The notes below the pieces were generated by a model. The model saw nothing but the letters and a program-made list of their open reading frames with translations. It was not told where the DNA came from and did not search any database. From an uncultured Rhodospirillales bacterium (GTDB lineage Bacteria > Pseudomonadota > Alphaproteobacteria > CAZCBM01): a DNA stretch of 59,420 bases. The stretch lies in the NCBI GenBank assembly GCA_964496805.1, contig CAZCBM010000001.1:1-59420 (forward strand), read 5' to 3'. Numbering within the stretch: position 1 is the first letter of the stretch; each line of letters opens with the position of its first letter. Below, one piece after another: positions 1,869 to 50,886 of the stretch. Both the position numbers and the translations under genes were made by a program.

Positions 1869-3110
1869 TTAGCGCTCACGGATCCAAATCACCATGCGGC
1901 TGACTTGGGAGGCGCTGGCGTTGGCGTTGCGGTACCAACTGCCAACGAAATTGTTGTTCCTGTGGAACATGCTGTTCTGCCAACAGTTGGTGTACCACCA
2001 ACCGCCGTTGTAGCTGACATTGTTCCGCGCACAATTGCTGGACCACGTGTCATTGTCTCGGTCCCATGTGGTGAACGCCTGCCCGCGAATATCGTTACTG
2101 GTGCAGCTGCTGTAGGAATTCCGCAGGATCCAGCTGCTGCCGCAGCCGCCCCAACTGATCGCATAGGTGCTGCCTGAGATACTGAAATCCGTGTGGCTGA
2201 GATCAGGGTCGCCGTTGCCGCCCTGGTTGTCGATAAAGAAGTCGTTTTGGCTGTAGGTGCTGGTAAAGGCGGACCATGCCCCCAGGGGCATCCAATAAAA
2301 CCCAGTGGAAGGCGACGGGGTGCCATAGCCGTTCTGGGTGTACATGTCCCACCCGCCAGCGGCCACGGTCGTCCCGTCTGTCGCCGTCACGGTTGCGCTG
2401 CCATCGCCGCCCACCGCCAGCTTTTCAGAACTGGACATTCCGGTGGCCGACGTTGCCAGCAGCATCCAGCCACCCCCATCGCGGGATTGGTCACAATAAA
2501 CCTCCAGCGGCCCAAAACCGAAATCCACGGTATAGGTACCGCTGCCGGTCTGGCCACTGTCCAACAGGGCCTTGCAACTGGTGGCGGTGGTGACGCTGAC
2601 GGAAACGGTTGCGGTGTCTGATCGGCCGTCCGCCCCTTGAACGGTATAGCTAAACTGGACCCCACTGGCGGCCGAAGGAGTGACCTGGATGGCCGAACCG
2701 CCCAGGCTGACACTGGTGCCAACGGCGCCGCCAACCCCGGTTATGCGCAACCCCTCGCCGTCATCATTTGATAGAAGGTCCTCTAGCGGAACGCTGAGGA
2801 TGGCCCCCAATTGGATGGGGCCAACCGTGTCATCGCTGGCGCGCGTGGCCTCAAAGTCGGGGGCAGGGGTTGCCCTGGTGCCGTCCAGGGTGCTGGCAAC
2901 ACCGGTGAACAGCTCAGTCGTGCTTTCACCAACTCTATTTACGGCCGTCAGGGCCCCCAAGGCGATCAGACCAACCCCCAAGGCATAGGTCAGCGCCGTG
3001 GCGCCCCGACGCCTGCCGTTGCTTGAATGCATGTCCTGGCCCAAAGCACTCACCCCTGCCTGCGGATACCCATGGGCGGAAGGTGTGACCCCCTCAGCAG
3101 AGGCTGTCAA
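1869..3110 (-). CDS. secreted/pilin-like protein: Flp-type N-terminus, cadherin-like module and fibrinogen-related C-terminal domain
   Basis: N-terminus RRRGATALTYALGVGLIALGALTAV is collinear with the Flp pilin leader plus helix. Middle region has LLSNDDGEGLRITGV...FSYTVQGADGRSDTATVSVSV. C-terminus has LEVYCDQSRDGGGW and FTTWDRDNDTWSSNCA...NGGWWYTNCW. Alternative start at ATG 3032 (MHSSNGRRRG). Confidence 0.75.
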   Translation of the reverse strand: MTASAEGVTPSAHGYPQAGVSALGQDMHSSNGRRRGATALTYALGVGLIALGALTAVNRVGESTTELFTGVASTLDGTRATPAPDFEATRASDDTVGPIQLGAILSVPLEDLLSNDDGEGLRITGVGGAVGTSVSLGGSAIQVTPSAASGVQFSYTVQGADGRSDTATVSVSVTTATSCKALLDSGQTGSGTYTVDFGFGPLEVYCDQSRDGGGWMLLATSATGMSSSEKLAVGGDGSATVTATDGTTVAAGGWDMYTQNGYGTPSPSTGFYWMPLGAWSAFTSTYSQNDFFIDNQGGNGDPDLSHTDFSISGSTYAISWGGCGSSWILRNSYSSCTSNDIRGQAFTTWDRDNDTWSSNCARNNVSYNGGWWYTNCWQNSMFHRNNNFVGSWYRNANASASQVSRMVIWIRER

Positions 3111-16759: not shown

Positions 16760-17986
16760 ATGCTGCGTTTGTCCAAACAACCTGCGGGCTTCCGGCGATG
16801 GCTGCCGGTCTACATCATCGCCGTGCTGAGCGTTTTCCTCTGGGGCATCGGCGGCATCACCCAGAGGCAGCAAAGCACCGTGACCACCGATCCGCTCAAT
16901 CCCTATCGCCTGGAGCAATGGGACGATCTTCCGGGATGGCAGACCGACCGGCTCAGTGAGGCGCTGCCAGCCTTGAGGGAAAGCTGCACGGCGTTGACCC
17001 GGGGCGAACCTGCCCGGCCGGTGGGTCCCGATGGGCTCGGCGGACGGGTGGCCGACTGGCTGAGCCCCTGCGAGGCCCTGCAAGCGGTGGCAGACGGGGA
17101 TGATGACGCGCTGCGCGCCTGGCTCACGACCTATTTCAATCCCCACAGCGTCTATGGACCGGAAGGACCGGACGGTCTGTTCACCGGCTATTACATCCCT
17201 GAAGTCCGGGGATCGCTGACACGCACCGGCCCCTATCAGACCCCGGTCTATAGCGTGCCGACAGACCTGATTACGGCGCGCTTGGCGGACTTCCGACGGG
17301 ATGGGGAGGGTGCCATCATTGGCCGTGTGGAAGGCGGCCGACTGGTGCCACACTTCAACCGGAGCGAGATCAATGCGGGCGCCTTGGAGGGGCAGGGTCT
17401 GGAGATCTTGTGGGTGGATGACCCCATTGACCTGTTCTTTCTGGAGATCCAGGGCAGCGGCATCGCCGTCCTGCCAGACGGCTCCCGGCGGGGCGTGGGC
17501 TATGCTGGCAAGAATGGCCACGCCTATTTTGCCATCGGCCGAACACTGCTGGAGGAAGGGCACCTGACCCGTGAAGAGATCAGCCTGCAGTCCATCAAAG
17601 CATGGCTTCGGGCCAATCCCGACCGGGCGCAGGAGGTGATGGAACTGAACCGCTCCTACGTCTTTTTTCAGCTCAACGAAGATGTCCGGGCGCGCGGCGC
17701 GCTGAACGTGCCGCTGACGCCGGGCCGGTCCCTGGCCGTGGATCGCCGGCACGTGCCCCTTGGCGCGCCCCTGTGGGTGGACATCACTCATCCCACGGAT
17801 GACGCCGAGGAGGCACGGGTCCAGCGGCTGATGGCGGCGCAGGATGTGGGAGGCGCGGTCACGGGCGTGGTGCGTGGTGACATGTTCTGGGGCTACGGCG
17901 AGGAGGCGGAAGCCTTGGCCGGCCCCATGCGCAGCCTGGGTCGATACTGGCTGATCCTGCCCAAGGGAACCGCCCCAGAGGGCTGA
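16760..17986 (+). CDS. mltA: membrane-bound lytic murein transglycosylase A
   Basis: MltA-specific and 3D-domain pattern (LFTGYYIPEVRGS, LFFLEIQGSG, YFAIGRTLLEEG, AVDRRHVPLGAPLWV, QDVGGAVTG). Confidence 0.85.
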   Translation: MLRLSKQPAGFRRWLPVYIIAVLSVFLWGIGGITQRQQSTVTTDPLNPYRLEQWDDLPGWQTDRLSEALPALRESCTALTRGEPARPVGPDGLGGRVADWLSPCEALQAVADGDDDALRAWLTTYFNPHSVYGPEGPDGLFTGYYIPEVRGSLTRTGPYQTPVYSVPTDLITARLADFRRDGEGAIIGRVEGGRLVPHFNRSEINAGALEGQGLEILWVDDPIDLFFLEIQGSGIAVLPDGSRRGVGYAGKNGHAYFAIGRTLLEEGHLTREEISLQSIKAWLRANPDRAQEVMELNRSYVFFQLNEDVRARGALNVPLTPGRSLAVDRRHVPLGAPLWVDITHPTDDAEEARVQRLMAAQDVGGAVTGVVRGDMFWGYGEEAEALAGPMRSLGRYWLILPKGTAPEG

Positions 17987-18167
17987 TCGTGGGCTTATCG
18001 TGAGCTGCCAGAGGGATGGCGCCAGCAGCGGTGCCCGGCACTGGCTGGCATCGGACCTGGATTTAGTCCCATAATCAAAATTATCGGACTTTCGGATGCT
18101 GGGAGGGGGGTGATCTTCCCGCCCCTCGCCCGCCCTTCATGACCGCCATTGGCGGTCATGCGACCTC

Positions 18168-19118
18168 TCACGCGACGTCCTGTTGGTTCTGGAGGGCGGT
18201 GATTTCGCGATCCGTTGAGGGCGGCCGGACTGGCGCAAGCGCCGGTAGGCGAGGACGCGGCAGAGACCCCAACCCTGGCCATAAGCGCATCTGGCCCGTG
18301 TCAGGCTCCGGCGCTGCGATCACCGTCCACTGGCCTGGGCGCCCACCCCGGCTGCGTACCAAGCTGAGGTGCCAGGCCGTCAGGCCAACGCCGGGCAACG
18401 CCGCCCCTGTGAGGTCTTGCTCGGCGGGGCCTGGCGCAGCGGCCACAGCCCACACGCTGTGTAGGCCCGCTTGGATCCCCTTGGGGCTGCTGCCCCTGCG
18501 TCTATCAGTGGACTGGTGAGCCTCTGCCGTGTCGGCTTGTTGGGTTGCCGCATGACGTGGGAGCTCTGGCGATTCCGTCAGCCCAGGGTCTTCAGCCGTC
18601 CGATGGGGCAGAATAAGACCCATGACCCCACCGGCCTCCGCGGCCAGTTGCAGCCGTCGGGCCGCCGTCACGCCCTGTGGTTCCACCTCCGCCACCACCA
18701 CTGACAGCGCCGGGCACCGCAAGCCCTGTTCAAGCGCCCAGAGCCGGTCTGTCGCCTCCCGCACGCTGTGTGCCAGGATCAACCTGTCGGGGGTTACGCC
18801 CCAAGCCGCCAGCCCCGGGGCGTGCAGGGCTGCCCCCTGTTGGATCCATAGGGCTGGCCGTTGCGGTGTGGCCAGTTGGGCCGTGATCCAGGCAGCAAAC
18901 CCCAGCACCGGCCCCCCCTGCCCGCCGAGACGATGGACGGCTGCCCGCTTCATTCCCCCTGGTGGCAGGTGGCGATCGATATCCGGCACGCCCAGGGATA
19001 GTCCCGGCACAGGTGTGCCCGCCGCACTCCCCATCCCCTGGATGTGCTGGATTTTGCGCTGAAGTCGCTGTAGAGCCCCTGGTGACGGGGCGTGTTTGCG
19101 CCCATGATGCCCTGTCAT
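18168..19118 (-). CDS. imuA: ImuA-like SOS mutagenesis protein (RecA-fold, inactive)
   Basis: ALQRLQRKIQHIQG...GVPDIDRHLPPGGMKRAAVH...ALWIQQ...DRLWALEQGLRCPALSVVVAEV...RRLQLAAEAGGVMGLIL...WHLSLVRSRGG matches the ImuA pattern as I recall it. An SOS box lies immediately upstream. Confidence 0.6.
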   Translation of the reverse strand: MTGHHGRKHAPSPGALQRLQRKIQHIQGMGSAAGTPVPGLSLGVPDIDRHLPPGGMKRAAVHRLGGQGGPVLGFAAWITAQLATPQRPALWIQQGAALHAPGLAAWGVTPDRLILAHSVREATDRLWALEQGLRCPALSVVVAEVEPQGVTAARRLQLAAEAGGVMGLILPHRTAEDPGLTESPELPRHAATQQADTAEAHQSTDRRRGSSPKGIQAGLHSVWAVAAAPGPAEQDLTGAALPGVGLTAWHLSLVRSRGGRPGQWTVIAAPEPDTGQMRLWPGLGSLPRPRLPALAPVRPPSTDREITALQNQQDVA

Positions 19119-19133
19119 GTTCTGATTGTGTTC
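19119..19133. promoter_or_regulatory. alphaproteobacterial LexA (SOS) box GTTC-N7-GTTC
   Basis: GTTCTGATTGTGTTC was read directly. It abuts the imuA start codon (19116-19118) in the imuA/mazG divergent intergenic region. Confidence 0.55.
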
Positions 19134-19233
19134 TTATTTGTGCCTGCCGTCAAGGCGGTTGCGGCCCCGGAGTTGCCTCCCCCCGTCTCCGGTCTGTCTT
19201 TGTCCCCCCCTGCCCCAAGGAGTGTTCTGCCCC

Positions 19234-20073
19234 ATGACCGCAGAGGATCATCTGCCGGCCGAGCCGCTGGCACGCCTGTTGAGCATCATGGCCCGTCTGC
19301 GGGACCCCAACGGCGGCTGCCCCTGGGACCTGGAGCAGACCTTTGCCACCATCGCCCCCTACACCATCGAAGAAGCCTTCGAGGTTGCCGATGCCATCGA
19401 CCGCTTTGAAGCGGGGGAGGCGTCGGCGGAGGATCTGAAGGACGAACTGGGGGATCTGCTGCTGCAAGTGGTCTTCCACAGTCAGATCGCCCACGACCGT
19501 GGCTTGTTCGGGTTTGCGGACGTGGCCCAACAGGTGGCGGACAAGATGCTGGCCCGTCATCCCCATGTCTTTGGCACCCTGGACATTGCGGATGCCGAGG
19601 CCATGACCCGCAAATGGGAGGACCTGAAAGCAGCCGAGCGCCAGGCCAAAGCGGCCCAGGAGGGACGCGAGCCCAGCGTGTTGGATGGGGTGGCGCTAGG
19701 CCTTCCTGCGCTGCTACGGGCGGCAAAGTTGCAGAAGCGGGCGGCGCGGGTGGGTTTCGACTGGACGGATCCGGCTGACATCTTGGATAAGGTGGAAGAG
19801 GAACTGGGGGAAGTCCGCGGGGCCATGGCCGTGCAGGATCTAGACAACCTGGCGGAGGAAATCGGCGACTTGCTGTTTGTGTTGGCCAATCTGGCACGCC
19901 GGCACGGCCTGGACCCCGAAGCCTGCCTGCGGGGGGCCAATGCCAAATTCATAGGCCGCTTCCAGGGCATGGAGAGGCTGGCCGATCAGGAGCGCCGTCC
20001 CCTCAGCGAACGCTCCTTGGTTGAACAGGAAGCCCTGTGGCAGCAGGTGAAGACGGCGGAGCGCAAGGGGTAG
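19234..20073 (+). CDS. mazG: nucleoside triphosphate pyrophosphohydrolase MazG
   Basis: Start moved to ATG 19234, with AAGGAG upstream. LARLLSIMARLRDPNGGCPWDLEQTFATIAPYTIEEAFEVADAI. Tandem MazG domains. Confidence 0.9.
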   Translation: MTAEDHLPAEPLARLLSIMARLRDPNGGCPWDLEQTFATIAPYTIEEAFEVADAIDRFEAGEASAEDLKDELGDLLLQVVFHSQIAHDRGLFGFADVAQQVADKMLARHPHVFGTLDIADAEAMTRKWEDLKAAERQAKAAQEGREPSVLDGVALGLPALLRAAKLQKRAARVGFDWTDPADILDKVEEELGEVRGAMAVQDLDNLAEEIGDLLFVLANLARRHGLDPEACLRGANAKFIGRFQGMERLADQERRPLSERSLVEQEALWQQVKTAERKG

Positions 20074-20171
20074 GCCGACACTCAGCGCTCCCTGGGGGAC
20101 AGACCTTGGTATCCTGATCCTGCGTCCACAGCGCCTGTCAGCGCCGGTGTCCAGAGCGCGTTGCGCCGGCA

Positions 20172-20277
20172 TAGAGCGCAGGACTCCAAAGGGACAACGC
20201 CACTGAGGGGATCATCCGAGCGACCACCAGAAAGCGACAGCAGCGAGACCGATTTGGAATCGGTGTCGCTGCTGTAG
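20172..20277 (+). repeat. structured intergenic element, copy A (~106 nt)
   Basis: About four-fifths of positions are identical to 41371..41477 by manual alignment. The 3' half folds as ACAGCAGCGA-GA-CCGATT-TGG-AATCGG-TG-TCGCTGCTGT. Confidence 0.7.
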
Positions 20278-20287
20278 AGTGATCACC

Positions 20288-20372
20288 AACCCCCCTCGAC
20301 CCCACCCGGCCAGCCATTGCGATGATGCTGGCGTTGGTGGCCGGGGGGGCGTGGGGTGGCCGAGGTGGGTGG
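20288..20372. repeat. GC-rich palindromic element (imperfect), related to 53314..53380
   Basis: Arms CCCCTCGACCCCACCCGGCCAGCC / GGTGGCCGGGGGGGCGTGGGGTGGCCGAGG. The loop TTGCGATGATGCTGGCG resembles the reverse complement of the 53339-53355 loop. Confidence 0.5.
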
Positions 20373-20418
20373 AACCTGCCCCGAGCCGGTCGGCCCAAGA
20401 CCGCCGAACCGGGCGCGC

Positions 20419-21933
20419 TCAGTCAGGCTCACTGAGCTTAATGACCAAGCGTCCTTCCAGCAGTTGCACCGCGCCCGGGGCAGGCCACGGAGGCTGATCC
20501 CGCAACACTTCTGCTGCGACAGGAACAAACGCTAGGTCCCTGTAAAACCGCCGCTCTGGGGCCACGAACTTCAACACTTCCACCTGCGACCAGGGGGCAT
20601 GAAAAGCCGAGCGAAGGACACTGTTCTGGCGCTGGCCATAGTGGCTCTCCACCACGCCCACCACGCTAACCCGCTGATGAACCTGCGGATCATAGCCGGG
20701 CAGGCCATCCACGCGCCCCACGATTTGGATCGCCATCGCCTGATCTTGCTGATATGTCAGTTGTTGCAGAAAGACCAAGGACGACCCGGTCAGCGCGAAT
20801 ATCCACACCACCAGCGCCCCTGCCCCATAGGCCAGGACGCGGATTGCGCGGCTGCCAATCATTAGCGGCGCCCCGATCAATGCGGCCCCCACCAGGGCAT
20901 AGGCGGTGATGGCCCGGGGCGGCAGGTCCCCAGAATGACTGACGGCCATCAGGAAGGGAGACACCAGGGCGGCAAGCCACAGCAACAGAACGCTCAGCGT
21001 GCGGCTTAGCGGCATGTGTAGGCGTTGGCGCAGCGCCGAAAACGCCACTAAGCTCAGCACCAGCCCCGCCAGAAGCAAGAATTTGGCGGGACGCGGAAAC
21101 AGCACCTCGTCCGCCAACAAGGAGCGAAGGGCAAGGGCCAGCGGGCTGAAGAGTTTGACCACCACACCGCCAACGGTCTCTGGCTGCTGGCTGCGGGTGT
21201 CCATGGCCGTATCCAGGAATTGGCTCTGGATGACGAACAAGGCCAAATACCCGAAACCGGCCAGCAGTAGGACACCTGCATGGGCAAGGGCGCGCCGAAA
21301 ACAATAAGCCAGCGAGGCCTGCTTGTGCTTGAGGCCGAGAAAAACCAACCCAACCATCAGCGTGCAGGTGTAGACGGAAACGCTGGGCTGATAGATGGCA
21401 AGCCCCATGAGCAGGAGCGACGCGGCCACGGGGTAAGCAACCCTCCGGCGCTTGAAGGCAGAGGGCAGCAAGCCTGCGCGACGGTCCGCGATCAGCAAAG
21501 CCACAACAGCCAACAGATTGGCCAGCGGATAGGTGAGGACGGCCGTGCCGAAATTGTACATGTCGAGATGATAGGGCAGCAGCGCCATCAATAGCGCGCC
21601 CATGACCGCCGGCGCTGTCCGCGACAGACCGACATAGCGCAAACTGAGCGTAATGAGCAGGGTGTGGAACACCAATCCACAGAAGAGTGCCAGCGTGGGG
21701 GCAAACCTCCCCCCCAAAACAAACTGATAAATCCAGGTTTGAAGCCAGCGGCCAAGAGAGTGCCAGCTCACACTGGTCTGACTGAATTGGCCATAGTCAT
21801 CGACGTTCAAGGTGGCCTGTGACAGTTCTGGCAAGAAAACCAGAACAAGGCTTCCAAGCGCCGCTGCGAAGATGGGCCAATCCCGCCGCGCCAGTTCCGT
21901 CAGTCGTTCTTGTCGTGATCCAACCCTATCCAC
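20419..21933 (-). CDS. polytopic membrane protein, GT-C/GtrII-like glucosyltransferase candidate
   Basis: 504 aa with about 11-12 hydrophobic helices. An acidic DDYGQF motif follows TM1. The C-terminal ~110 aa form a soluble domain. The family assignment is tentative. Confidence 0.5.
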   Translation of the reverse strand: MDRVGSRQERLTELARRDWPIFAAALGSLVLVFLPELSQATLNVDDYGQFSQTSVSWHSLGRWLQTWIYQFVLGGRFAPTLALFCGLVFHTLLITLSLRYVGLSRTAPAVMGALLMALLPYHLDMYNFGTAVLTYPLANLLAVVALLIADRRAGLLPSAFKRRRVAYPVAASLLLMGLAIYQPSVSVYTCTLMVGLVFLGLKHKQASLAYCFRRALAHAGVLLLAGFGYLALFVIQSQFLDTAMDTRSQQPETVGGVVVKLFSPLALALRSLLADEVLFPRPAKFLLLAGLVLSLVAFSALRQRLHMPLSRTLSVLLLWLAALVSPFLMAVSHSGDLPPRAITAYALVGAALIGAPLMIGSRAIRVLAYGAGALVVWIFALTGSSLVFLQQLTYQQDQAMAIQIVGRVDGLPGYDPQVHQRVSVVGVVESHYGQRQNSVLRSAFHAPWSQVEVLKFVAPERRFYRDLAFVPVAAEVLRDQPPWPAPGAVQLLEGRLVIKLSEPD

Positions 21934-22169
21934 TCAAACCCCCTTCAGCCTATCCCTCCCGCTTCCCTTGCCCGTTGGCCCCTTGAAGGCTGTGCTGCCG
22001 TAGGGGCCACAAGAGGGCGCGCGGCATGGTAGAGACTGGTCAATAGACCTTTCAACGCCAGGCCCCTGGTTTAGGGGGGGATGGGTATGGCGCACAAGGG
22101 ACGGCCTGTCTCACGTCATCGGCGAAGCAGCGTCCGTTTGTGCAAACCCCCTGAACGCTGCGAACTCGG

Positions 22170-34981: not shown

Positions 34982-35315
34982 GGCAGCCTCGTGGCAGGGA
35001 TAGGGGTTTCGGATTACCCGCAAAGGGGCCATCTCTCGGGTGTTATCGACATTTATCAATGTCCCCTGAGATGGAAAGGCGGTTTAGCATGGCCACGGCT
35101 ATGCGCCAACGGTCAAGCAACGGCCGTCCCGAACCGTTCTGGCGGCAAACAGCGGGCAAGGGGAAAGACGTCTGCCCTAAAGGCCAAGGGCGAACCTCAA
35201 GCGCCTCCGGAGGGGTGATTTTGCTTGGGCCTTTCGGCATTTGCGGCCAGTTTCAGGGGTGTCAGCCGCCCTGATCCCAATTCCCTGGATCCCATGCCCT
35301 GGAGAGGACCCCACG

Positions 35316-36356
35316 ATGGCGAAGCATCGCAAGAAGCCGCAAAAGAGCCATCAGAAGGCAACGCCCCAGGCCTCTGGTCCCAGTGGCATGGAGCAAAAGT
35401 TTGGCGCCTGGGGTATCGATATGAAGGAGGTGACCTTCACCAAGTCACCCACCAAGACGGCCCGTTCCGCCTTCAAGGAGGTACGCCGCGGCTTCCTCCA
35501 GCACTTGGCCGAGAACTACAGCGATGAATTGCGCAAGGCCGGCCTGAGCGAGGCGCAGATCGACACCATGCGCGATCAGGGTCGCAGCCCCCCCAACATG
35601 AATGTCCACCACAAGCTGCCCTTGAGCGGCGGTGGCAAGAATGTCTGGGATAACTTGGTCCTCATCCCGATTGAGCCGCATCACAGCGCCATCCATCGGC
35701 ACAGCGATCCGCAGATCGTGGACCTGGGCAAGGGTCAGAGCCGCACCATTGTGATGGCATGGCCGGCCGGGCCGATCTATGCGCCCAAGCATCCAGATAT
35801 GTGGAAGGGCCGCGATATGGACGCGATCATGGCGGCTGCCCAAAAGGGCCAGCGGCTGGACGCCCCGGCACAGCAGCAGCCCTCCGTATCCGCCCCAACC
35901 CGTGCACCGCGGGTGATTGAATCCTCCGCGCCGGTGGCACAGGCCCCATCGGCCGCAGCCCCGGCAAAGCCCGCGGCTGATCCTGCCGCAGCGCCCGCTG
36001 CCCCGTCCAATGACGGCTACGGGTGGGCTTTGGGGGAAGAGGACGCCCGCCCTTCGCGGTCCCTGGCGCCTCCCTCCCACCAGGCATCGGCGCAGCCGGC
36101 GGCCTCGGATGACGACGCTGCCCACGGTTGGACCCTGGATGGGGCCGAAACCGGCAGCAACCCGGCGCCTGCTCGCCCTTCCGCCCCCAAGTCCCCGCCC
36201 AAAGGCGACGATGCTGAGGGCTTTGGCTGGACGCTGGGTGTCAGTGAGGATGCCCCGGCCAGCAGCAAGGGGCATCGCAAACCCCAGAAGCCAGCAAAGA
36301 AGACCTGGGTCGAGTCCTTCGATCCCAATCAGATTTCCACGCCGCGAAGGCGCTGA
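35316..36356 (+). CDS. HNH-motif nuclease domain protein with long Ala/Pro-rich tail carrying repeated acidic-GW motifs
   Basis: ATG 35316 with GGAGAGGA upstream. HNH core NVHHKLPLSGGGKNVWDNLVLIPIEPHHSAIHRH (aa 97-129). The tail contains DGYGWALGEED, AAHGWTLDGAE and AEGFGWTLGVSED. The C-terminus is basic. Confidence 0.7.
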   Translation: MAKHRKKPQKSHQKATPQASGPSGMEQKFGAWGIDMKEVTFTKSPTKTARSAFKEVRRGFLQHLAENYSDELRKAGLSEAQIDTMRDQGRSPPNMNVHHKLPLSGGGKNVWDNLVLIPIEPHHSAIHRHSDPQIVDLGKGQSRTIVMAWPAGPIYAPKHPDMWKGRDMDAIMAAAQKGQRLDAPAQQQPSVSAPTRAPRVIESSAPVAQAPSAAAPAKPAADPAAAPAAPSNDGYGWALGEEDARPSRSLAPPSHQASAQPAASDDDAAHGWTLDGAETGSNPAPARPSAPKSPPKGDDAEGFGWTLGVSEDAPASSKGHRKPQKPAKKTWVESFDPNQISTPRRR

Positions 36357-47645: not shown

Positions 47646-48125
47646 ATGATGTTGAAAAATGTGGTTCTGAGCCTGCTGCTGATCATCGGATCTGCCTCTC
47701 TGGCGCAGGCCCAGACCGCCGACTTGGGGCCCGATGGGCCAGCGTCTCTGTTGGCCACCTATGAGGCATTCGCTGCCGCACAGAATGATCGTGATCTTGA
47801 TCGGGTGGGGCAATTCTTCATCGATGGACCTGAGTTCCTGTGGGTCTCCGATGGTCAGTCCTTCTGGGGACGGGAAGCCGTCCTGGCACGCATGGGCCGC
47901 TTTCAAGGGGCGGATATCTGGCGGGTTCTCCCTGACTTAGACACCGCCAGGATTGTTCCCCTGTCGCAAGACAGTGCTTTCCTGCACCTGTCCTTGGTGT
48001 TGGAGATTGGGTCGGATCCCCGCCCGAACCGCTTGGGGTTCCTGGTCACAATTCTGTTTGTTAAGCAGGAAAGTGCGCCATGGCGCATTGCAGCATTGCT
48101 CACCACCCGCGAGAAGAACCAGTAG
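47646..48125 (+). CDS. secreted SnoaL/NTF2-like (DUF4440-like) protein
   Basis: ATG 47646 inside ORF 47253..48125. Signal peptide MMLKNVVLSLLLIIGSASLAQAQ. The fold assignment is tentative. Confidence 0.5.
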   Translation: MMLKNVVLSLLLIIGSASLAQAQTADLGPDGPASLLATYEAFAAAQNDRDLDRVGQFFIDGPEFLWVSDGQSFWGREAVLARMGRFQGADIWRVLPDLDTARIVPLSQDSAFLHLSLVLEIGSDPRPNRLGFLVTILFVKQESAPWRIAALLTTREKNQ

Positions 48126-48200
48126 TGGCGACGCAGGCCCAAGGGGCTGTCCGCCCGGCGCAGCCGCCCTCGCCGTGACCGGGCCATGGAGGACTGAGAC

Positions 48201-49446
48201 ATGCTCTATTTGGTTCAAGGGGCTCTACGGGGGGATCGGCCGCGGGACATTATTCGTCGCTCCACCATCATCGGGATCATCAGCTTTCTTACGCTGATCG
48301 ACTTGTTCGGCAGCCAGGCCTTGCTGCCCCGGCTGGTGGTTGCGTTCGACACCGACCCTGGGTTCATGGGCCTCGCGGTGAACGCGGCCACGCCGGGCAT
48401 GGCGCTGTCTGGCCTGCTGGTGGCATAGTTTGCAGACCGGATTGACCGTAAGCGCGGCATCTGGATCAGCCTTGCCTGCCTGAGTGTCCCGACGGCATTG
48501 CTGGGGGTTGTGGACTCGGTCAACCTGTTCATGGCGCTCAGGATTGCCCAGGGCGTGTTCATGGCGGCAGCCTTCACGCTGACCATGACTTATCTGTCGG
48601 AGCAGTGCGATGTGACCGCCGCCGGTGGAGCCATGGCCGCCTACATCACCGGCAATGTTGCCTCCAACCTGCTGGGTCGCATCATGGCGGTGAGTGCCGC
48701 CGATGGGCTGGGCCTCAGCGGTTCTTTCTTCGTCTTTGCCGCTCTCAACCTCGTGGGCGCGCTGCTGGCCTTTACGCTGGTGGGGGCCCGGGATAACGAG
48801 CGCCCGGTGCGGACGGGATCGCCGGCGGCCGCCTGGCGTCAGCATATGGCCCATCCGGCACTGCGGGCCGCCTTTGTGATGGGGTTCGCCATCCTGTTCA
48901 TCTTCGTGGGTGTCTTCACCTATGTGAACCTGCATCTGACCCAAGCCCTGGGCATCGATGAGGCGTTGCTGGGCGTGGTCTACTTGGTGTTTCTGCCGGC
49001 CCTGATCACGACGCCCTATGCATCGCGGGCGGTGAGCCACTTTGGACCGAAGCGGGTGTTCCAGGTGGCGGGGGGGGGGCTGCCTCGCTGGGACCGGCCT
49101 CACTTTGATCCCCGCACTGCCACCGGTTCTGGCGGGCCTCGCCGTGATTGGCGCTGGCACCTTCTTTATGCAGGCCGCCGCCACGGGATTTGTCGGCCGA
49201 ACCGCGCTAACCAATAGGGCGGCTGCCAATGGGCTCTATCTCACCAGCTACTATGTAGGTGGCCTTGTTGGGGCGTTGGCGTTGGGTCAGGCCCACCTGA
49301 TCGGCCAGTGGCCGCTCATCGCGGCCATTGTGTTGGCCGTCCTGGCAGGCCTTATCCTGCTGGCTCGGTTCTTGGGTAACCCTGGGCCGGAGGTGCGCCC
49401 GCTGGCGGAACAAGCGACGGCATCGTCGGCGGCATCTGGCTCCTGA
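48201..49446 (+). pseudogene. MFS transporter disrupted by an in-frame TAG and a frameshift at a G10 tract
   Basis: Three ORF pieces are collinear with one 12-TM MFS protein. TAG at 48426-48428 interrupts the motif-A region (GLLVA*FADRIDRKRG). A frame change occurs at the G-run 49070-49079. Confidence 0.7.
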
Positions 49447-49562
49447 GCCCGTTGCCTTGCCGATGATTCAGGCATTAGGCCTTGGCTGGCCGTCTGCTGC
49501 AGGTGTACGGTTATGACAAATGCGTCTTTCAACCCTTTGTCTCGCCTGTATGAGGTCGTACC

Positions 49563-50165
49563 ATGTCCACAGTCCCTATGGCCCGCTTTCTGGTGCTGGC
49601 TCCCTTGAGCCTCCTGGCCCTCAGCGTCCCTGCCCTTGCCCATGCTGGCGAGGGGCTTGGGGGCGGCTTCGTGAGTGGCTTTTCGCATCCGGTGCTGGGA
49701 TGGGACCACGTGGTGGCCATGGTGGCCGTGGGCCTGTGGGGGGCTTTCCTGGGTAAGCCCGCGCTTTGGATCCTGCCCATTGCTTTTCCCCTGGTGATGA
49801 CGTTGGGGGCTGTTCTGGGCATCCTCGGCGTGCCTGTCCCTGAGGTCGAGGTGGGCATCGCCGCTTCCGCTATTGTCCTGGGCGGGCTGATCGCCACAGC
49901 CGCTCGGTTGCCTGTGGTGGCCGCTGCCGTGGTCGTTGGGCTGTTTGCTGTCTTCCATGGCCATGCCCATGGCACAGAGTTGCCCGCCGCCACCAATGCG
50001 GCGGCCTATGCAGTAGGATTTGTGCTGGCCACGGGCCTGTTGCACTTGGCCGGGATCGCCTTGGGCGTGCTGGTACGTTGGCGGATGGGCCGGCTGGCCG
50101 TGCGTGCCGGCGGCGTCGGCATTGCGGCCCTGGGGGTGTTGTTCCTCAGCCGTGCCCTGGCGTAA
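49563..50165 (+). CDS. HupE/UreJ-family metal (Ni/Co) transporter
   Basis: Signal peptide followed by HAGEGLGGGFVSGFSHPVLGWDHVVAMVAVGLW and FHGHAHGTE. Confidence 0.8.
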   Translation: MSTVPMARFLVLAPLSLLALSVPALAHAGEGLGGGFVSGFSHPVLGWDHVVAMVAVGLWGAFLGKPALWILPIAFPLVMTLGAVLGILGVPVPEVEVGIAASAIVLGGLIATAARLPVVAAAVVVGLFAVFHGHAHGTELPAATNAAAYAVGFVLATGLLHLAGIALGVLVRWRMGRLAVRAGGVGIAALGVLFLSRALA

Positions 50166-50193
50166 AGCGCGCGGCCTCTTCAAACGCTCTTTC

Positions 50194-50886
50194 GTGGGCC
50201 GGAGTCTCTTCCTGGCCCTTCCGGCGATTGTCTTCAGCAGCCCCGCCTCTGCCCATGGTCTGCCCAATGGGTTCGAGGGGGTGAGTCTTGGTGCCGAGAT
50301 TGTCCTCGGCAGCCCCTATACCCTCCTTCCAGCGGTGGCTGCGGGCCTGTTGATTGGCCAGCACCCCTTCAGTCGCCTAGCCTGGACTTGGGCGGCGCTG
50401 GCCGGAGGGCTGGCCCTTGGCAGCATTGCCGCCATCCTCGTAACCCTGAGGCTGATCCCGGCCCCGGTCTTCACCCTGTTGGTCTGGTCCCTGTATGGCG
50501 TGATGGGATTGGCCGCGGCGGCAGCCCTGCTGGCCGCCGCCCTGCCCCGGCTGCCACTGGGGGTGAGTGTCGGGTTGATCGCTGCCCTCGGGGCCCTCAC
50601 CGGGGTCTTGGCCTCCGATGATCATGCCGACGCTGACACCGGCGGTCTGGTGGCGTTGCTTTGCGGCTATGCGGTGGCGGGGCAGATGGTCCCGGCGGGT
50701 CTGGGTTGCTTTGCGGCGGCGCTGCGGGAGGCGTGGCCCTCATCGGCCTGGGTGGGCATCGGCTTGCGCATTGTTGCGGCCTGGACAGCGGCCATTGCCG
50801 TGCTGATCCTGACCGTCGATGCCACCGCGCCTGTGTGGAGCGAGGAGCCCCAGCCTACTGAGGCCATGACCGCATCAGGGCTGTGA
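50194..50886 (+). CDS. integral membrane protein (weakly HupE/UreJ-like topology)
   Basis: GTG 50194 inside ORF 50020..50886. Signal-like N-terminus ...SSPASAHG followed by about 6 TM helices. Both the start and the family are uncertain. Confidence 0.4.
   Translation: MGRSLFLALPAIVFSSPASAHGLPNGFEGVSLGAEIVLGSPYTLLPAVAAGLLIGQHPFSRLAWTWAALAGGLALGSIAAILVTLRLIPAPVFTLLVWSLYGVMGLAAAAALLAAALPRLPLGVSVGLIAALGALTGVLASDDHADADTGGLVALLCGYAVAGQMVPAGLGCFAAALREAWPSSAWVGIGLRIVAAWTAAIAVLILTVDATAPVWSEEPQPTEAMTASGL

What the first reader, a model, noticed from the sequence alone, without database searches (positions are those of the whole stretch)
1869..3110. Flp-type prepilin N-terminus fused to cadherin-like and fibrinogen-related (FReD) domains
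- **Flp-like N-terminus:** residues RRRG/ATALTYALGVGLIALGALTAVNRVGESTTELF are collinear with Flp/Fap pilins (G/ATAIEY followed by a hydrophobic helix). The normally invariant Glu5 is Thr here.
- **Long extension:** Flp pilins are normally 50-80 aa, but this protein continues for about 330 aa.
- **Cadherin/VCBS-like module:** LLSNDDGEGLRITGV...FSYTVQGADGRSDTATVSVSV.
- **Fibrinogen-like C-terminal domain:** it carries the hallmarks of the animal fibrinogen C-terminal globular domain (CKALLDSG..SGTYTV...LEVYCDQSRDGGGW; FTTWDRDNDTWSSNCA...NGGWWYTNCWQNS; terminal MVIWIR).
- **Why it matters:** FReD lectin domains are rare in bacteria, and I know of no description of one on an Flp-type leader. It could be a pilus-tip or minor-pilin lectin adhesin, or the Flp helix may simply serve as a membrane anchor.
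- **Context:** no tad/cpa genes are in this window.
Basis: partly seen in the sequence, partly recalled or inferred. Interest (0 to 1): 0.7.

Follow-up and report, generated by a model that had tools for sequence, protein, structure and literature searches.

The report
Flp-leader lectin: a cargo-carrying pilin
A real, selected gene joins a Tad/Flp pilin helix that lacks its usual glutamate to an Ig-like spacer and a fibrinogen-type lectin domain, and it belongs to a large, apparently undescribed class of Flp-leader proteins carrying adhesion modules, probably for display on Tad pili.

Summary
ORF 1869-3110 (-), most likely starting at the ATG at 3032 (387 aa), encodes four parts:
- a leader ending in Gly10
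- a 40-45-residue Flp-like helix
- a Big_9 Ig-like domain
- a complete fibrinogen-related domain (FReD), confirmed by profiles and Foldseek, with both disulfides and the Ca-site triad

Flp_Fap alone is below Pfam's cut-off. However, a profile of this leader finds annotated Flp pilins, one heading a classical tad operon.

Among the 150 nearest representatives:
- Leaders with Ser/Thr/Gly at +5 are long (116 of 127).
- Leaders with Glu5 are short pilins (18 of 22).
- Gly-1, Tyr+6, Gly+25 and Leu-Phe +31/32 are conserved in both classes.
- Cargo is FReD, ALK_LTK_GRD, Lcl_C, LRR, discoidin and similar.

One alphaproteobacterial MAG has at least 11 such genes. CPR bacteria put the same FReD on N_methyl pilin leaders.

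An ortholog gives dN/dS = 0.08.

No tad genes lie in the window or within the 10-kb flanks of most relatives; one has a TadG-like gene about 9 kb away.

Best reading (confidence 0.5): a Glu5-less modular Flp minor pilin that displays a lectin on Tad pili, probably at the tip. Processing and pilus incorporation are inferred, not shown.

The parts
1869..3032 (-). Whole gene (387 aa plus stop) from the ATG at 3032. The open frame extends upstream to a TTG at 3110.
   Evidence: ORF list. The database call P0001 and the ortholog P0267 both start at this ATG. dN/dS = 0.08 against the ortholog.
3003..3032 (-). Hydrophilic, basic leader peptide MHSSNGRRRG ending in Gly10 (the -1 position of a class III, prepilin-type signal).
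   Evidence: Gly at -1 in 95% of both leader classes and Arg at -2 in 82% of Glu5-less leaders. Replacements between orthologs are enriched here: 4 of 9 residues against 17 of 378, p = 7e-4.
2868..3002 (-). Flp-like helix module, residues 11-55. It has a 21-residue hydrophobic core, ATALTYALGVGLIALGALTAV (2940-3002), with Thr at +5 (2988-2990) and Tyr at +6. The post-membrane half, NRVGESTTELFTGVASTL (2886-2939), follows.
   Evidence: Flp_Fap is the best Pfam family but below its cut-off. The protein scores 78 bits, E = 3.4e-17, against the family leader profile, which included its own leader. AlphaFold places a single helix at 13-52. Gly+25 is 100% and Leu-Phe at +31/32 is 96-97% conserved in the class.
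2826..2885 (-). Flexible linker DGTRATPAPDFEATRASDDT.
   Evidence: pLDDT is below 50 at residues 51-67. The equivalent stretch in the class is rich in Ser, Ala, Gly, Pro and Thr.
2598..2840 (-). Bacterial Ig-like domain (Big_9), residues 65-145.
   Evidence: PF17963 scores 28.7-28.9 bits against a cut-off of 23.6. Cadherin_5 is below its cut-off. The model has beta strands at 70-148.
1872..2591 (-). Complete fibrinogen-related domain (FReD), residues 148-387. Landmarks: YCDQSRDGGGW (2466-2498), Ca-site motif FTTWDRDND (2049-2075), GGWWYTNCWQNS (1971-2006), and six Cys at 153, 180, 297, 310, 334 and 350.
   Evidence: PF00147 at 2.3e-13. NF040941. PDB sequence hits. Foldseek hits are all FReDs. 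Invariant Cys pairs and D-x-D-x-D appear in the alignment with ficolin-3 and bacterial FReDs. Coordinates.

Best explanation
The gene encodes a modular ('cargo') minor pilin of the Tad/Flp (type IVc) pilus family.

Proposed mechanism, with each step marked:
1. The basic leader and 21-residue hydrophobic helix insert the protein into the inner membrane with the C-terminus outside. (Inferred.)
2. A TadV/CpaA-type prepilin peptidase cleaves after Gly10. (Inferred from conservation of the site; cleavage is not shown.)
3. The remaining 45-residue helix equals an entire mature Flp pilin. It packs with the helices of the major Flp pilin in a Tad filament. (Inferred.)
4. Position +5 is Thr rather than Glu, so the subunit should not homopolymerise. 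It is expected to sit where no Glu5 salt bridge is needed, as the capping or first-assembled subunit at the tip, or sparsely among normal subunits. (Inferred from established type 4 filament rules.)
5. A flexible linker and an Ig-like spacer hold out a Ca-binding fibrinogen-type lectin domain, which serves as the adhesive head. (The fold and Ca-site motif are shown; the ligand is unknown.)

The protein belongs to a large class of Glu5-less Flp-leader proteins that carry interchangeable binding modules. (Shown.)
For: Homology of the leader to Flp:
- Flp_Fap is the top Pfam family for all 11 leader modules tested, with best E = 1.7e-8, and for 96 of 115 long class members.
- The leader profile retrieves proteins that sources name Flp pilins.
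- One of these, the 60-aa P0248, heads an operon of Flp, secretin, Peptidase_A24, CpaB-like, CpaE-like, T2SSE and two T2SSF genes.

The leader is a specifically recognised signal, not a generic anchor:
- Conservation in the Glu5-less class is Gly-1 95%, Tyr+6 100%, Gly+11 100%, Gly+25 100% and Leu-Phe at +31/32 96-97%.
- This holds across representatives clustered at 50% identity whose cargo domains are unrelated. Mean column identity is 47% in the leader against 7% over full lengths.
- The post-membrane half of Flp is retained, which a simple anchor would not need.

Glu5 loss goes with cargo:
- 116 of 127 non-Glu5 leaders have a mature part over 150 aa, against 4 of 22 Glu5 leaders. Fisher p = 2.6e-12.

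Literature rules:
- Gly-1 is critical for processing and Glu5 is dispensable for it. Glu5 mutants cannot homopolymerise but co-assemble with wild-type subunits (PMC4471445).
- Tip complexes are capped by a Glu5-less subunit (PMC10191384).

The cargo is adhesive:
- Fibrinogen_C 25, ALK_LTK_GRD 12, Lcl_C 10, plus LRR, TIG, discoidin and Gp38 adhesin.

Independent convergence:
- The same FReD sits on N_methyl prepilin leaders in Saccharibacteria, Paceibacterota and other metagenomic proteins.

A relative's genome has Tad parts:
- A TadG-like pseudopilin with VWA lies about 9 kb from a paralog in the Alpg2KO MAG.

The gene is functional:
- dN/dS = 0.08, and replacements are concentrated in the stretch before Gly10.

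Structure:
- One long helix, a linker, a beta sandwich and a FReD.
- All six Cys are in the FReD, which fits an extracytoplasmic location.
Against: - No tad/cpa gene lies in the 59-kb window. Of the six relatives' loci examined, five have none within 10 kb, or within the short contig held; the sixth has only the TadG-like gene about 9 kb away.
- It is not shown that the window's genome has any Tad system or prepilin peptidase.
- The Pfam score for Flp_Fap is below the gathering cut-off for this protein.
- At least 11 paralogs in one genome is many for a tip subunit.
- Known Tad tip subunits (TadE/F/G, KilLMN, CpaJKL) have a pilin beta-sheet domain that this protein lacks.
- The leader is more basic at -3/-4 than in canonical Flp, which is acidic there. 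That could mean a different fate.
- The lectin P domain is modelled poorly (pLDDT 42-51). The residue after the second P-domain Cys is Trp, not the His usual in acetyl-binding FReDs.
- There is no experimental evidence of any kind.
Confidence: 0.5

Rival explanations
1. The Flp-type leader is a sorting signal rather than a filament subunit. A prepilin peptidase processes the protein, and Tad-related machinery places it on the cell surface or releases it without building it into a long pilus. This would be a bacterial counterpart of the Sulfolobus 'bindosome', where sugar-binding proteins carry class III signal peptides.
For: - There are many paralogs with diverse binding cargo in one genome, scattered among housekeeping genes. 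That looks like a sorting-signal regulon: at least 11 in the Alpg2KO MAG.
- The bindosome precedent is described in PMC4471445.
- Tad systems derive from archaeal Epd-like pili (PMC6668835), and archaeal pilins often lack Glu5.
- The same conservation of Gly-1 and Tyr+6 supports this reading as much as the best explanation.
Against: - No bacterial bindosome-like system is known.
- The whole Flp helix, including the filament-packing half, is conserved.
- FReD on N_methyl pilins and the published modular-pilin and Tad-tip cases point to display on a filament.
Confidence: 0.2
2. The Flp-derived helix is an uncleaved signal-anchor. The protein is then a bitopic inner-membrane protein whose Ig and FReD domains sit in the periplasm, unrelated to pili.
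For: - It has a basic N-terminus followed by a 21-residue hydrophobic helix.
- There is no tad linkage in the window and almost none at relatives' loci.
- It lacks Glu5, the residue needed for homopolymerisation.
Against: - A plain anchor does not explain near-invariant Gly-1, Tyr+6, Gly+25 and Leu-Phe +31/32 across unrelated cargo.
- It does not explain the faster evolution of the stretch before Gly10.
- It does not explain the same cargo being placed on a second class of pilin leaders.
- A periplasmic location makes little sense for Lcl_C, LRR, discoidin or Gp38-type adhesin modules.
Confidence: 0.15
3. The N-terminus is an ordinary Sec signal peptide cut by signal peptidase I, for example near the Ala-rich end of the helix. 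The product would be a soluble periplasmic or secreted lectin.
For: - The N-terminus has a basic n-region and a hydrophobic core. The class consensus has an Ala-Leu-Ala-like stretch at +17 to +19.
- The closest FReD relative, P0002, has a Sec-like N-terminus.
Against: - The hydrophobic stretch (21 residues) is long for a Sec signal.
- Canonical Flp pilins share the same Ala-rich helix, so that motif does not discriminate.
- Sec signals do not keep specific sequence motifs across proteins with unrelated cargo, nor a conserved 20-residue segment after the membrane part.
- No signal-peptide predictor was available, so this rival is not formally tested.
Confidence: 0.1

Closest known systems
Flp/Fap major pilins of Tad (type IVc) pili, e.g. 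Flp1 and Caulobacter PilA (Pfam PF04964)
   Same: The leader ends in Gly, Tyr is at +6, and there is a roughly 21-residue hydrophobic helix followed by the Gly...Leu-Phe half. Homology to annotated Flp pilins holds at profile level, including one that heads a tad operon.
   Different: - Thr replaces Glu at +5.
- The protein is 387 aa rather than 50-80 aa, with Ig-like and FReD domains added.
- The residues before Gly are basic rather than acidic.
- The gene is not in a tad locus.
- The Pfam score is below the cut-off.
Modular type IV pilins: Streptococcus sanguinis PilB (vWA) and PilC (lectin), and the more than 1,200 IPR012902 modular pilins surveyed by Raynaud et al. 2021 (PMC8179133). Also the prepilin(N_methyl)-FReD proteins of CPR bacteria found here.
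   Same: A pilin N-terminal module is joined by a short linker to a functional binding module, proposed to be exposed at the tip. The CPR proteins carry the very same cargo domain.
   Different: Those use the N_methyl (type IVa/T2SS) class III signal and a globular pilin module. This protein uses a helix-only Flp module without Glu5. The published survey did not cover Flp or Tad at all: neither word occurs in the text.
Tad pilus tip minor pilins: TadE/TadF/TadG, Myxococcus KilL/M/N 'Tips' (PMC12075869) and Caulobacter CpaJ/K/L (PMC12607857)
   Same: A large minor pilin presents a variable C-terminal domain at the end of a Tad pilus. Several interchangeable tips are encoded away from the main locus, and they depend on a prepilin peptidase.
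   Different: Those belong to the TadE/Tad (PF07811/PF13400) families and have a pilin-like beta-sheet module. This protein gives no TadE or Tad hit. Its pilin module is only an Flp helix, and its cargo is a FReD rather than vWA or a KilN domain.
GspK/PilK-type capping minor pilins lacking Glu5, and the type IVb tip minor pilin CofB with a lectin-like head
   Same: A Glu5-less subunit caps the filament, and a large adhesive domain sits on the tip subunit.
   Different: They belong to different filament classes (T2SS, T4aP, T4bP) and different pilin families. The comparison is by analogy only.
Animal FReD lectins (ficolins, tenascin FBG, FIBCD1, tachylectin 5A) and bacterial 'fibrinogen-like YCDxxxxGGGW' proteins (NF040941)
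   Same: The fold, both disulfide pairs, the DGGGW motif and the F-T-T-x-D-x-D-x-D Ca-site motif are shared.
   Different: - The B domain carries an insertion of about 20-40 residues.
- There is an extra Cys pair (297/310).
- Trp replaces the usual His after the second P-domain Cys.
- The nearest relatives are bacterial, at about 40% identity, not animal.
Sulfolobus bindosome (class III signal peptides on sugar-binding proteins)
   Same: A pilin-type signal is attached to ligand-binding proteins encoded in many copies.
   Different: That system is archaeal and has different cargo, and no filament has been demonstrated. The comparison is an analogy only.

Membership tests
Flp/Fap pilin (Pfam PF04964) | Score at or above Pfam's gathering cut-off (32.2 bits) | tested here: not met
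   17.7 bits on the whole protein and 23.4 bits on the isolated module. Flp_Fap is nevertheless the best-scoring family.
Flp/Fap pilin (Pfam PF04964) | Profile-level homology of the N-terminal module to bona fide Flp pilins | tested here: met
   The leader profile finds proteins annotated as Flp at E of 1e-12 to 1e-14 in 1.84 billion sequences. One of them heads a tad operon.
Flp/Fap pilin (Pfam PF04964) | Processing motif G/XXXXEY: Gly at -1, Glu at +5, Tyr at +6 | tested here: not met
   Gly10 and Tyr16 are present, but +5 is Thr15. The class as a whole has Ser, Thr or Gly there.
Flp/Fap pilin (Pfam PF04964) | Small helix-only protein (about 50-80 aa as a precursor) | tested here: not met
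   387 aa. The Flp-like part is residues 1-55 only.
Flp/Fap pilin (Pfam PF04964) | Encoded with a tad/cpa locus, and the genome has a TadV/CpaA peptidase | tested here: not met
   None is present in the 59-kb window. The rest of the genome could not be searched.
Flp/Fap pilin (Pfam PF04964) | Cleavage after Gly by a prepilin peptidase and assembly into a filament | not testable with these tools
   This needs biochemistry or microscopy. The only indirect evidence is conservation of Gly-1 and relaxed constraint before it.
Fibrinogen-related domain (PF00147 / NF040941) | Profile scores above curated cut-offs | tested here: met
   PF00147 scores 50.9 bits against 22. NF040941 scores 38 bits against 30.
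Fibrinogen-related domain (PF00147 / NF040941) | FReD fold | tested here: met
   All 50 top Foldseek PDB hits are FReDs, with probability 1.00 and target-normalised TM up to 0.71. The A/B core has pLDDT 75-94, but the P domain is low, at 42-51.
Fibrinogen-related domain (PF00147 / NF040941) | Two conserved disulfide pairs and the D-x-D-x-D calcium site | tested here: met
   Cys153/180, Cys334/350 and Asp324/326/328 are invariant in the alignment with ficolin-3 and bacterial FReDs. Metal binding itself was not tested.
Fibrinogen-related domain (PF00147 / NF040941) | Acetyl-group (S1) pocket residues of ficolin, FIBCD1 and tachylectin type (His after the second P-domain Cys, downstream Tyr). The residue roles are from my own knowledge. 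| tested here: inconclusive
   The protein has Cys-Trp-Gln-Asn-Ser instead of Cys-His-x-x-Asn-Leu-Asn-Gly. The P domain is poorly modelled, so the ligand cannot be assigned.
Modular type IV pilins sensu Raynaud et al. 2021 | N-terminal IPR012902 / N_methyl (PF07963) motif | tested here: not met
   There is no PF07963 hit at E up to 10 and no N_methyl motif in this ORF.
Modular type IV pilins sensu Raynaud et al. 2021 | Pilin module joined by a linker to a functional module not specific to pilus biology | tested here: met
   The order is helix, low-confidence linker, Big_9, FReD.
Tad tip pseudopilins TadE/TadF/TadG (PF07811, PF13400) | TadE or Tad N-terminal domain and a pilin-like beta-sheet module | tested here: not met
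   Neither family hits at E up to 10. The model goes from the helix straight to a linker. A true TadG-like protein from L018 does hit both families.
Bacterial Ig-like Big_9 (PF17963) / Cadherin_5 (PF17892) | Profile score above the cut-off | tested here: met
   Big_9 scores 28.7 bits against 23.6, so it is met. Cadherin_5 scores 17.1 bits against 26.5, so it is not met.

The most novel reading that the evidence does not exclude
Glu5-less Flp leaders define a widespread, undescribed class of 'cargo pilins'. On this reading, Tad (type IVc) machinery in some uncultured lineages, notably alphaproteobacterial ones, takes a genome-encoded repertoire of a dozen or more scattered genes. Each gene is a complete Flp helix fused to a different lectin or adhesin module. 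The machinery displays them as interchangeable pilus caps, or as a bacterial bindosome-like surface array. The window's protein would be the member that carries a full calcium-type fibrinogen lectin.
Probability: 0.4. Interest if true: 0.8.

Novelty: new variant of a known kind. Interest (0 to 1): 0.66.

Why it matters
How Tad/Flp pili recognise their targets is poorly understood. The major Flp pilin is a bare helix, and only TadG, KilN and CpaL-type tips have been proposed so far.

A class of Flp helices that have lost Glu5 and gained lectin or adhesin modules would give Tad pili a second, simple route to binding specificity. It would extend the 'modular pilin' principle from N_methyl pilins to type IVc filaments.

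It would also supply a clean sequence rule that is directly testable by mutation and microscopy: Glu5 goes with shaft subunits, and Ser/Thr/Gly5 goes with cargo subunits.

Finally, it shows fibrinogen-type lectin domains used as bacterial adhesin heads on two unrelated kinds of pilin leader.

Tried and rejected
Searches that led nowhere:
- Two protein-guided scans of 185,579 species-representative genomes with the leader alignment. Pattern hits numbered 17 and 23, and none was confirmed by tblastn. No organism names or extra contexts came from that route.
- One protein-guided scan of metagenome contigs: 33 pattern hits, none confirmed.
- One direct DNA-pattern scan of metagenome contigs: 7 loci, all chance matches such as ABC transporters.
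- tblastn of the protein against 72,556 plasmids: no match.
- Exact-sequence look-ups of P0001, P0270 and P0133: not on record.
- Source names for window proteins: none, so the organism is inferred only loosely as alphaproteobacterial. The basis is the gene content (for example a Tim44-like protein) and the closest leader relatives.
- Rfam scan of the window: nothing.

Explanations considered and rejected:
- A Tat signal. The twin arginine is not conserved in the family.
- TadE/TadG membership. No hits.
- Recent transfer of the FReD from animals. The nearest relatives are bacterial.
- A spurious ORF. dN/dS is 0.08.

Full report
**1. The observation**

The open frame runs from a TTG at 3110. 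The public gene call for this contig (P0001, 387 aa) and an ortholog from an independent sequencing run (P0267 on L013) both begin at the ATG at 3032. That start leaves a 10-residue leader, MHSSNGRRRG.

Against that ortholog the gene differs at 100 of 1164 bases. There are 72 synonymous and 21 non-synonymous codon differences, and dN/dS is 0.08. So this is a real gene under strong purifying selection. Four of the 21 replacements fall in the nine residues before Gly10, against 17 in the other 378 (Fisher p = 7e-4). That pattern is expected for a hydrophilic leader peptide that is removed and little constrained.

**2. Domains**

- Fibrinogen_C scores 50.9 bits against a cut-off of 22. Big_9 scores 28.7 bits against 23.6.
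- NCBIfam's 'fibrinogen-like YCDxxxxGGGW' model scores 38 bits against 30.
- PDB sequence search gives tenascin, ficolin and fibrinogen FReDs down to 2e-10.
- Cadherin_5 is below its cut-off, so Big_9 is the supported name for the middle module.
- An AlphaFold2 model built on a 46-sequence alignment has mean pLDDT 65 and pTM 0.62. It shows one 40-residue helix (13-52), a disordered linker, a beta sandwich (70-148) and a FReD. The FReD A/B core is confident, but the P domain is not, at pLDDT 42-51.
- All 50 best Foldseek hits in the PDB are FReDs. M-ficolin has target-normalised TM 0.71.
- In an alignment with ficolin-3 and two bacterial FReDs, both disulfide pairs, DGGGW and the F-T-T-x-D-x-D-x-D calcium-site motif are invariant. 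All six Cys lie in the FReD.
- The residue after the second P-domain Cys is Trp, where acetyl-binding FReDs usually have His. The role of that His is from my own knowledge. I therefore do not assign a ligand.
- The nearest FReDs are bacterial and lack a pilin leader: P0364 and P0002, at about 40% identity and 144-145 bits. Animal FReDs score 72 bits or less. The cargo therefore comes from a bacterial FReD pool. FReDs are not especially rare in bacteria.

**3. Is the N-terminus Flp?**

Taken alone, Flp_Fap is below Pfam's cut-off: 17.7 bits, or 23.4 bits for the isolated module, against 32.2. The family evidence is much stronger.

- Database searches found proteins with near-identical leaders, G/A-T-A-L-(S/T)-Y-G-L-V-V-G-L-I-A...G-S-x-x-x-L-F, followed by linkers and FReD-like domains. 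All 11 leader modules tested have Flp_Fap as their best family.
- A profile of these leaders was searched exhaustively against 1.84 billion representatives. It gave 11,530 hits at E of 1e-3 or better and 306 at 1e-10 or better.
- The hits include short proteins that their sources name Flp pilins.
- One of these, the 60-aa P0248, heads a textbook tad operon: Flp, secretin, Peptidase_A24, CpaB-like, CpaE-like, T2SSE and two T2SSF genes.

The module is therefore Flp-derived.

**4. The Glu5 rule**

Among the 150 best representatives (clustered at 50% identity), position +5 is Ser 47, Thr 39, Gly 31 and Glu 21.

- Of the leaders without Glu5, 116 of 127 have a mature part longer than 150 aa.
- Of the leaders with Glu5, 18 of 22 are short, like ordinary pilins (Fisher p = 2.6e-12).
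- The query profile contained only the leader, so protein length was not selected by the search.

Conservation is similar in both classes: Gly-1 is 95% in both. In the long class Tyr+6 is 100%, Gly+11 100%, Gly+25 100% and Leu-Phe at +31/32 96-97%. So the whole Flp pilin is retained, including the half beyond the membrane segment. This holds although the cargo domains are unrelated: mean column identity is 47% in leaders and 7% over full lengths.

The stretch after the helix is rich in Ser, Ala, Gly, Pro and Thr. One systematic difference is that residues -3 and -4 are basic in the long class and acidic in canonical Flp.

**5. Cargo and genomic distribution**

Of the 115 long Glu5-less proteins:
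- 96 hit Flp_Fap
- 25 hit Fibrinogen_C
- 12 hit ALK_LTK_GRD
- 10 hit Lcl_C
- smaller numbers hit LRR, He_PIG, TIG, discoidin, phage Gp38 adhesin and others

These are mostly binding or adhesion modules.

One alphaproteobacterial MAG (GCA_054603435.1) holds nine such genes in 74 kb of sequence that I could read, and at least two more elsewhere. They are scattered among housekeeping genes.

That MAG also encodes a TadG-like pseudopilin about 9 kb from one paralog. It hits Tad (PF13400) and VWA above their cut-offs.

A FReD profile search showed the same cargo on N_methyl-type prepilin leaders. These include proteins annotated from Saccharibacteria and Paceibacterota. Two unrelated pilin leader classes have thus acquired a FReD.

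**6. Context in the window**

About 45 ORFs were checked. They include proS, ackA, a pta-like gene, fabI, acs, htpG, phoX, tgt, a Tim44-like gene, mltA, glycosyltransferases, a phosphonate ABC system, ahcY, purC/purQ and folD. None is a tad/cpa gene, secretin, T2SSE/F or A24 peptidase. No second Flp-like or N_methyl leader exists in any frame. Whether the genome has a Tad system elsewhere could not be tested.

**7. Mechanism**

The established rules are these.
- The Gly before the cleavage site is critical for prepilin processing.
- Glu5 is dispensable for processing.
- Glu5 mutants cannot homopolymerise but are incorporated alongside wild-type subunits (PMC4471445).

Applied here, the conserved Gly-1 and full Flp helix argue for processing and co-assembly. 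Loss of Glu5 in exactly the cargo-bearing members argues that they are caps or sparse subunits rather than shaft subunits. The linker, Ig spacer and FReD would form the adhesive head.

The shown steps are the architecture, the homology, the conservation pattern, selection and the fold. The inferred steps are cleavage, incorporation, tip position and the ligand.

**8. Rivals**

- A sorting-signal or 'bindosome-like' use of the leader without filament incorporation fits the many scattered paralogs. It also fits the archaeal ancestry of Tad (PMC6668835; PMC4471445).
- A plain signal-anchor, or a Sec signal cut by signal peptidase I, fits the lack of tad linkage. Neither explains the motif conservation across unrelated cargo, the retained post-membrane half, or the parallel N_methyl-FReD fusions.
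- I could not run a signal-peptide predictor, so the Sec rival is argued against but not formally tested.

**9. Comparison with what is known**

- Modular pilins are established for N_methyl pilins, for example S. sanguinis PilB (vWA) and PilC (lectin). A survey found more than 1,200 such proteins. It was restricted to IPR012902 and does not mention Flp or Tad (PMC8179133).
- Tad tips are proposed to be TadE/F/G-type complexes (KilLMN, CpaJKL) with a large modular subunit, plus short Flp-like adapter pilins (PMC12075869; PMC12607857).
- The present protein is neither. It gives no N_methyl, TadE or Tad hit, and its pilin module is a bare Flp helix.
- Six literature searches found no description of Flp-leader cargo proteins or of the association between the +5 residue and protein length. 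The library searched is not complete, so absence of a paper is not proof.

**10. Verdict**

I classify it as a new variant of a known kind: a modular, tip-type pilin in the Flp/type IVc lineage. Interest is moderately high. The main weakness is that no link to a Tad machine has been shown in this genome.

Noticed in passing
L001-L004 and L018 (MAG GCA_054603435.1), e.g. L002:11811-12950(-), L002:13095-14162(-), L003:7732-8751(-), L004:1657-2364(+): One alphaproteobacterial MAG carries at least 11 Glu5-less Flp-leader genes with different cargo: FReD-like, Laminin_G_3, ALK_LTK_GRD, DUF1554/endostatin-like, and unassigned. They are scattered among housekeeping genes. Two FReD paralogs at 82% identity sit about 300 bp apart in L001.
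   Followed up: partly
P0125 (883 aa, top hit): A protein with 14 separate matches to the core of the leader profile. It has a repeated '...TPALEYGLVVGM...' unit within acidic repeats. It may be a tandem array of Flp-core-like segments or a low-complexity artefact.
   Followed up: no
P0077, P0272, P0276, P0277, P0294: Proteins of about 340-350 aa, some annotated from Saccharibacteria and Paceibacterota, join a prepilin N_methyl leader and pilin module to a complete FReD with the Ca-site motif. These are lectin-tipped type IV pilins in CPR bacteria.
   Followed up: partly
Class-wide: Residues -3 and -4 before the cleavage Gly are mostly Arg/Lys in Glu5-less cargo leaders, but Glu/Asp in the Glu5 short Flp pilins. 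This may reflect topology needs of a large exported domain, or a different peptidase preference.
   Followed up: no
L018:19480-20771(-), with neighbours at 17829-19411 and 1092-2809: A TadG-like pseudopilin (Tad plus VWA) lies next to two DotI/IcmL-like genes. Phage-like Collar and Peptidase_G2 genes lie further along the same contig. The tad-side flank runs off the fetched locus.
   Followed up: partly
window 56730-59120 (-): A 796-aa protein with an N-terminal Ser/Thr protein kinase domain and C-terminal FG-GAP repeats.
   Followed up: no
window 20001-22000 and 48001-50000: There are strong local AT skews of +0.23 and -0.30. The first coincides with a GtrII-family glucosyltransferase gene (20419-21933, -) beside two GT4 genes. 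The second coincides with an MFS_1 ORF (48498-49217) that matches only profile positions 83-277 of 347, so it may be truncated.
   Followed up: no
window 35241-36356 (+) and 49287-50267 (-): Two sizeable ORFs (371 and 326 aa) with high GC3 have no Pfam family at E of 1e-3 or better.
   Followed up: no
window residues 297 and 310 of the protein (about 2103-2144): There is an extra Cys pair inside a B-domain insertion (WGGCGSSWILRNSYSSC). It is absent from the ficolin-3 and from the bacterial FReDs P0002 and P0077 in the alignment, and the region has low model confidence.
   Followed up: no
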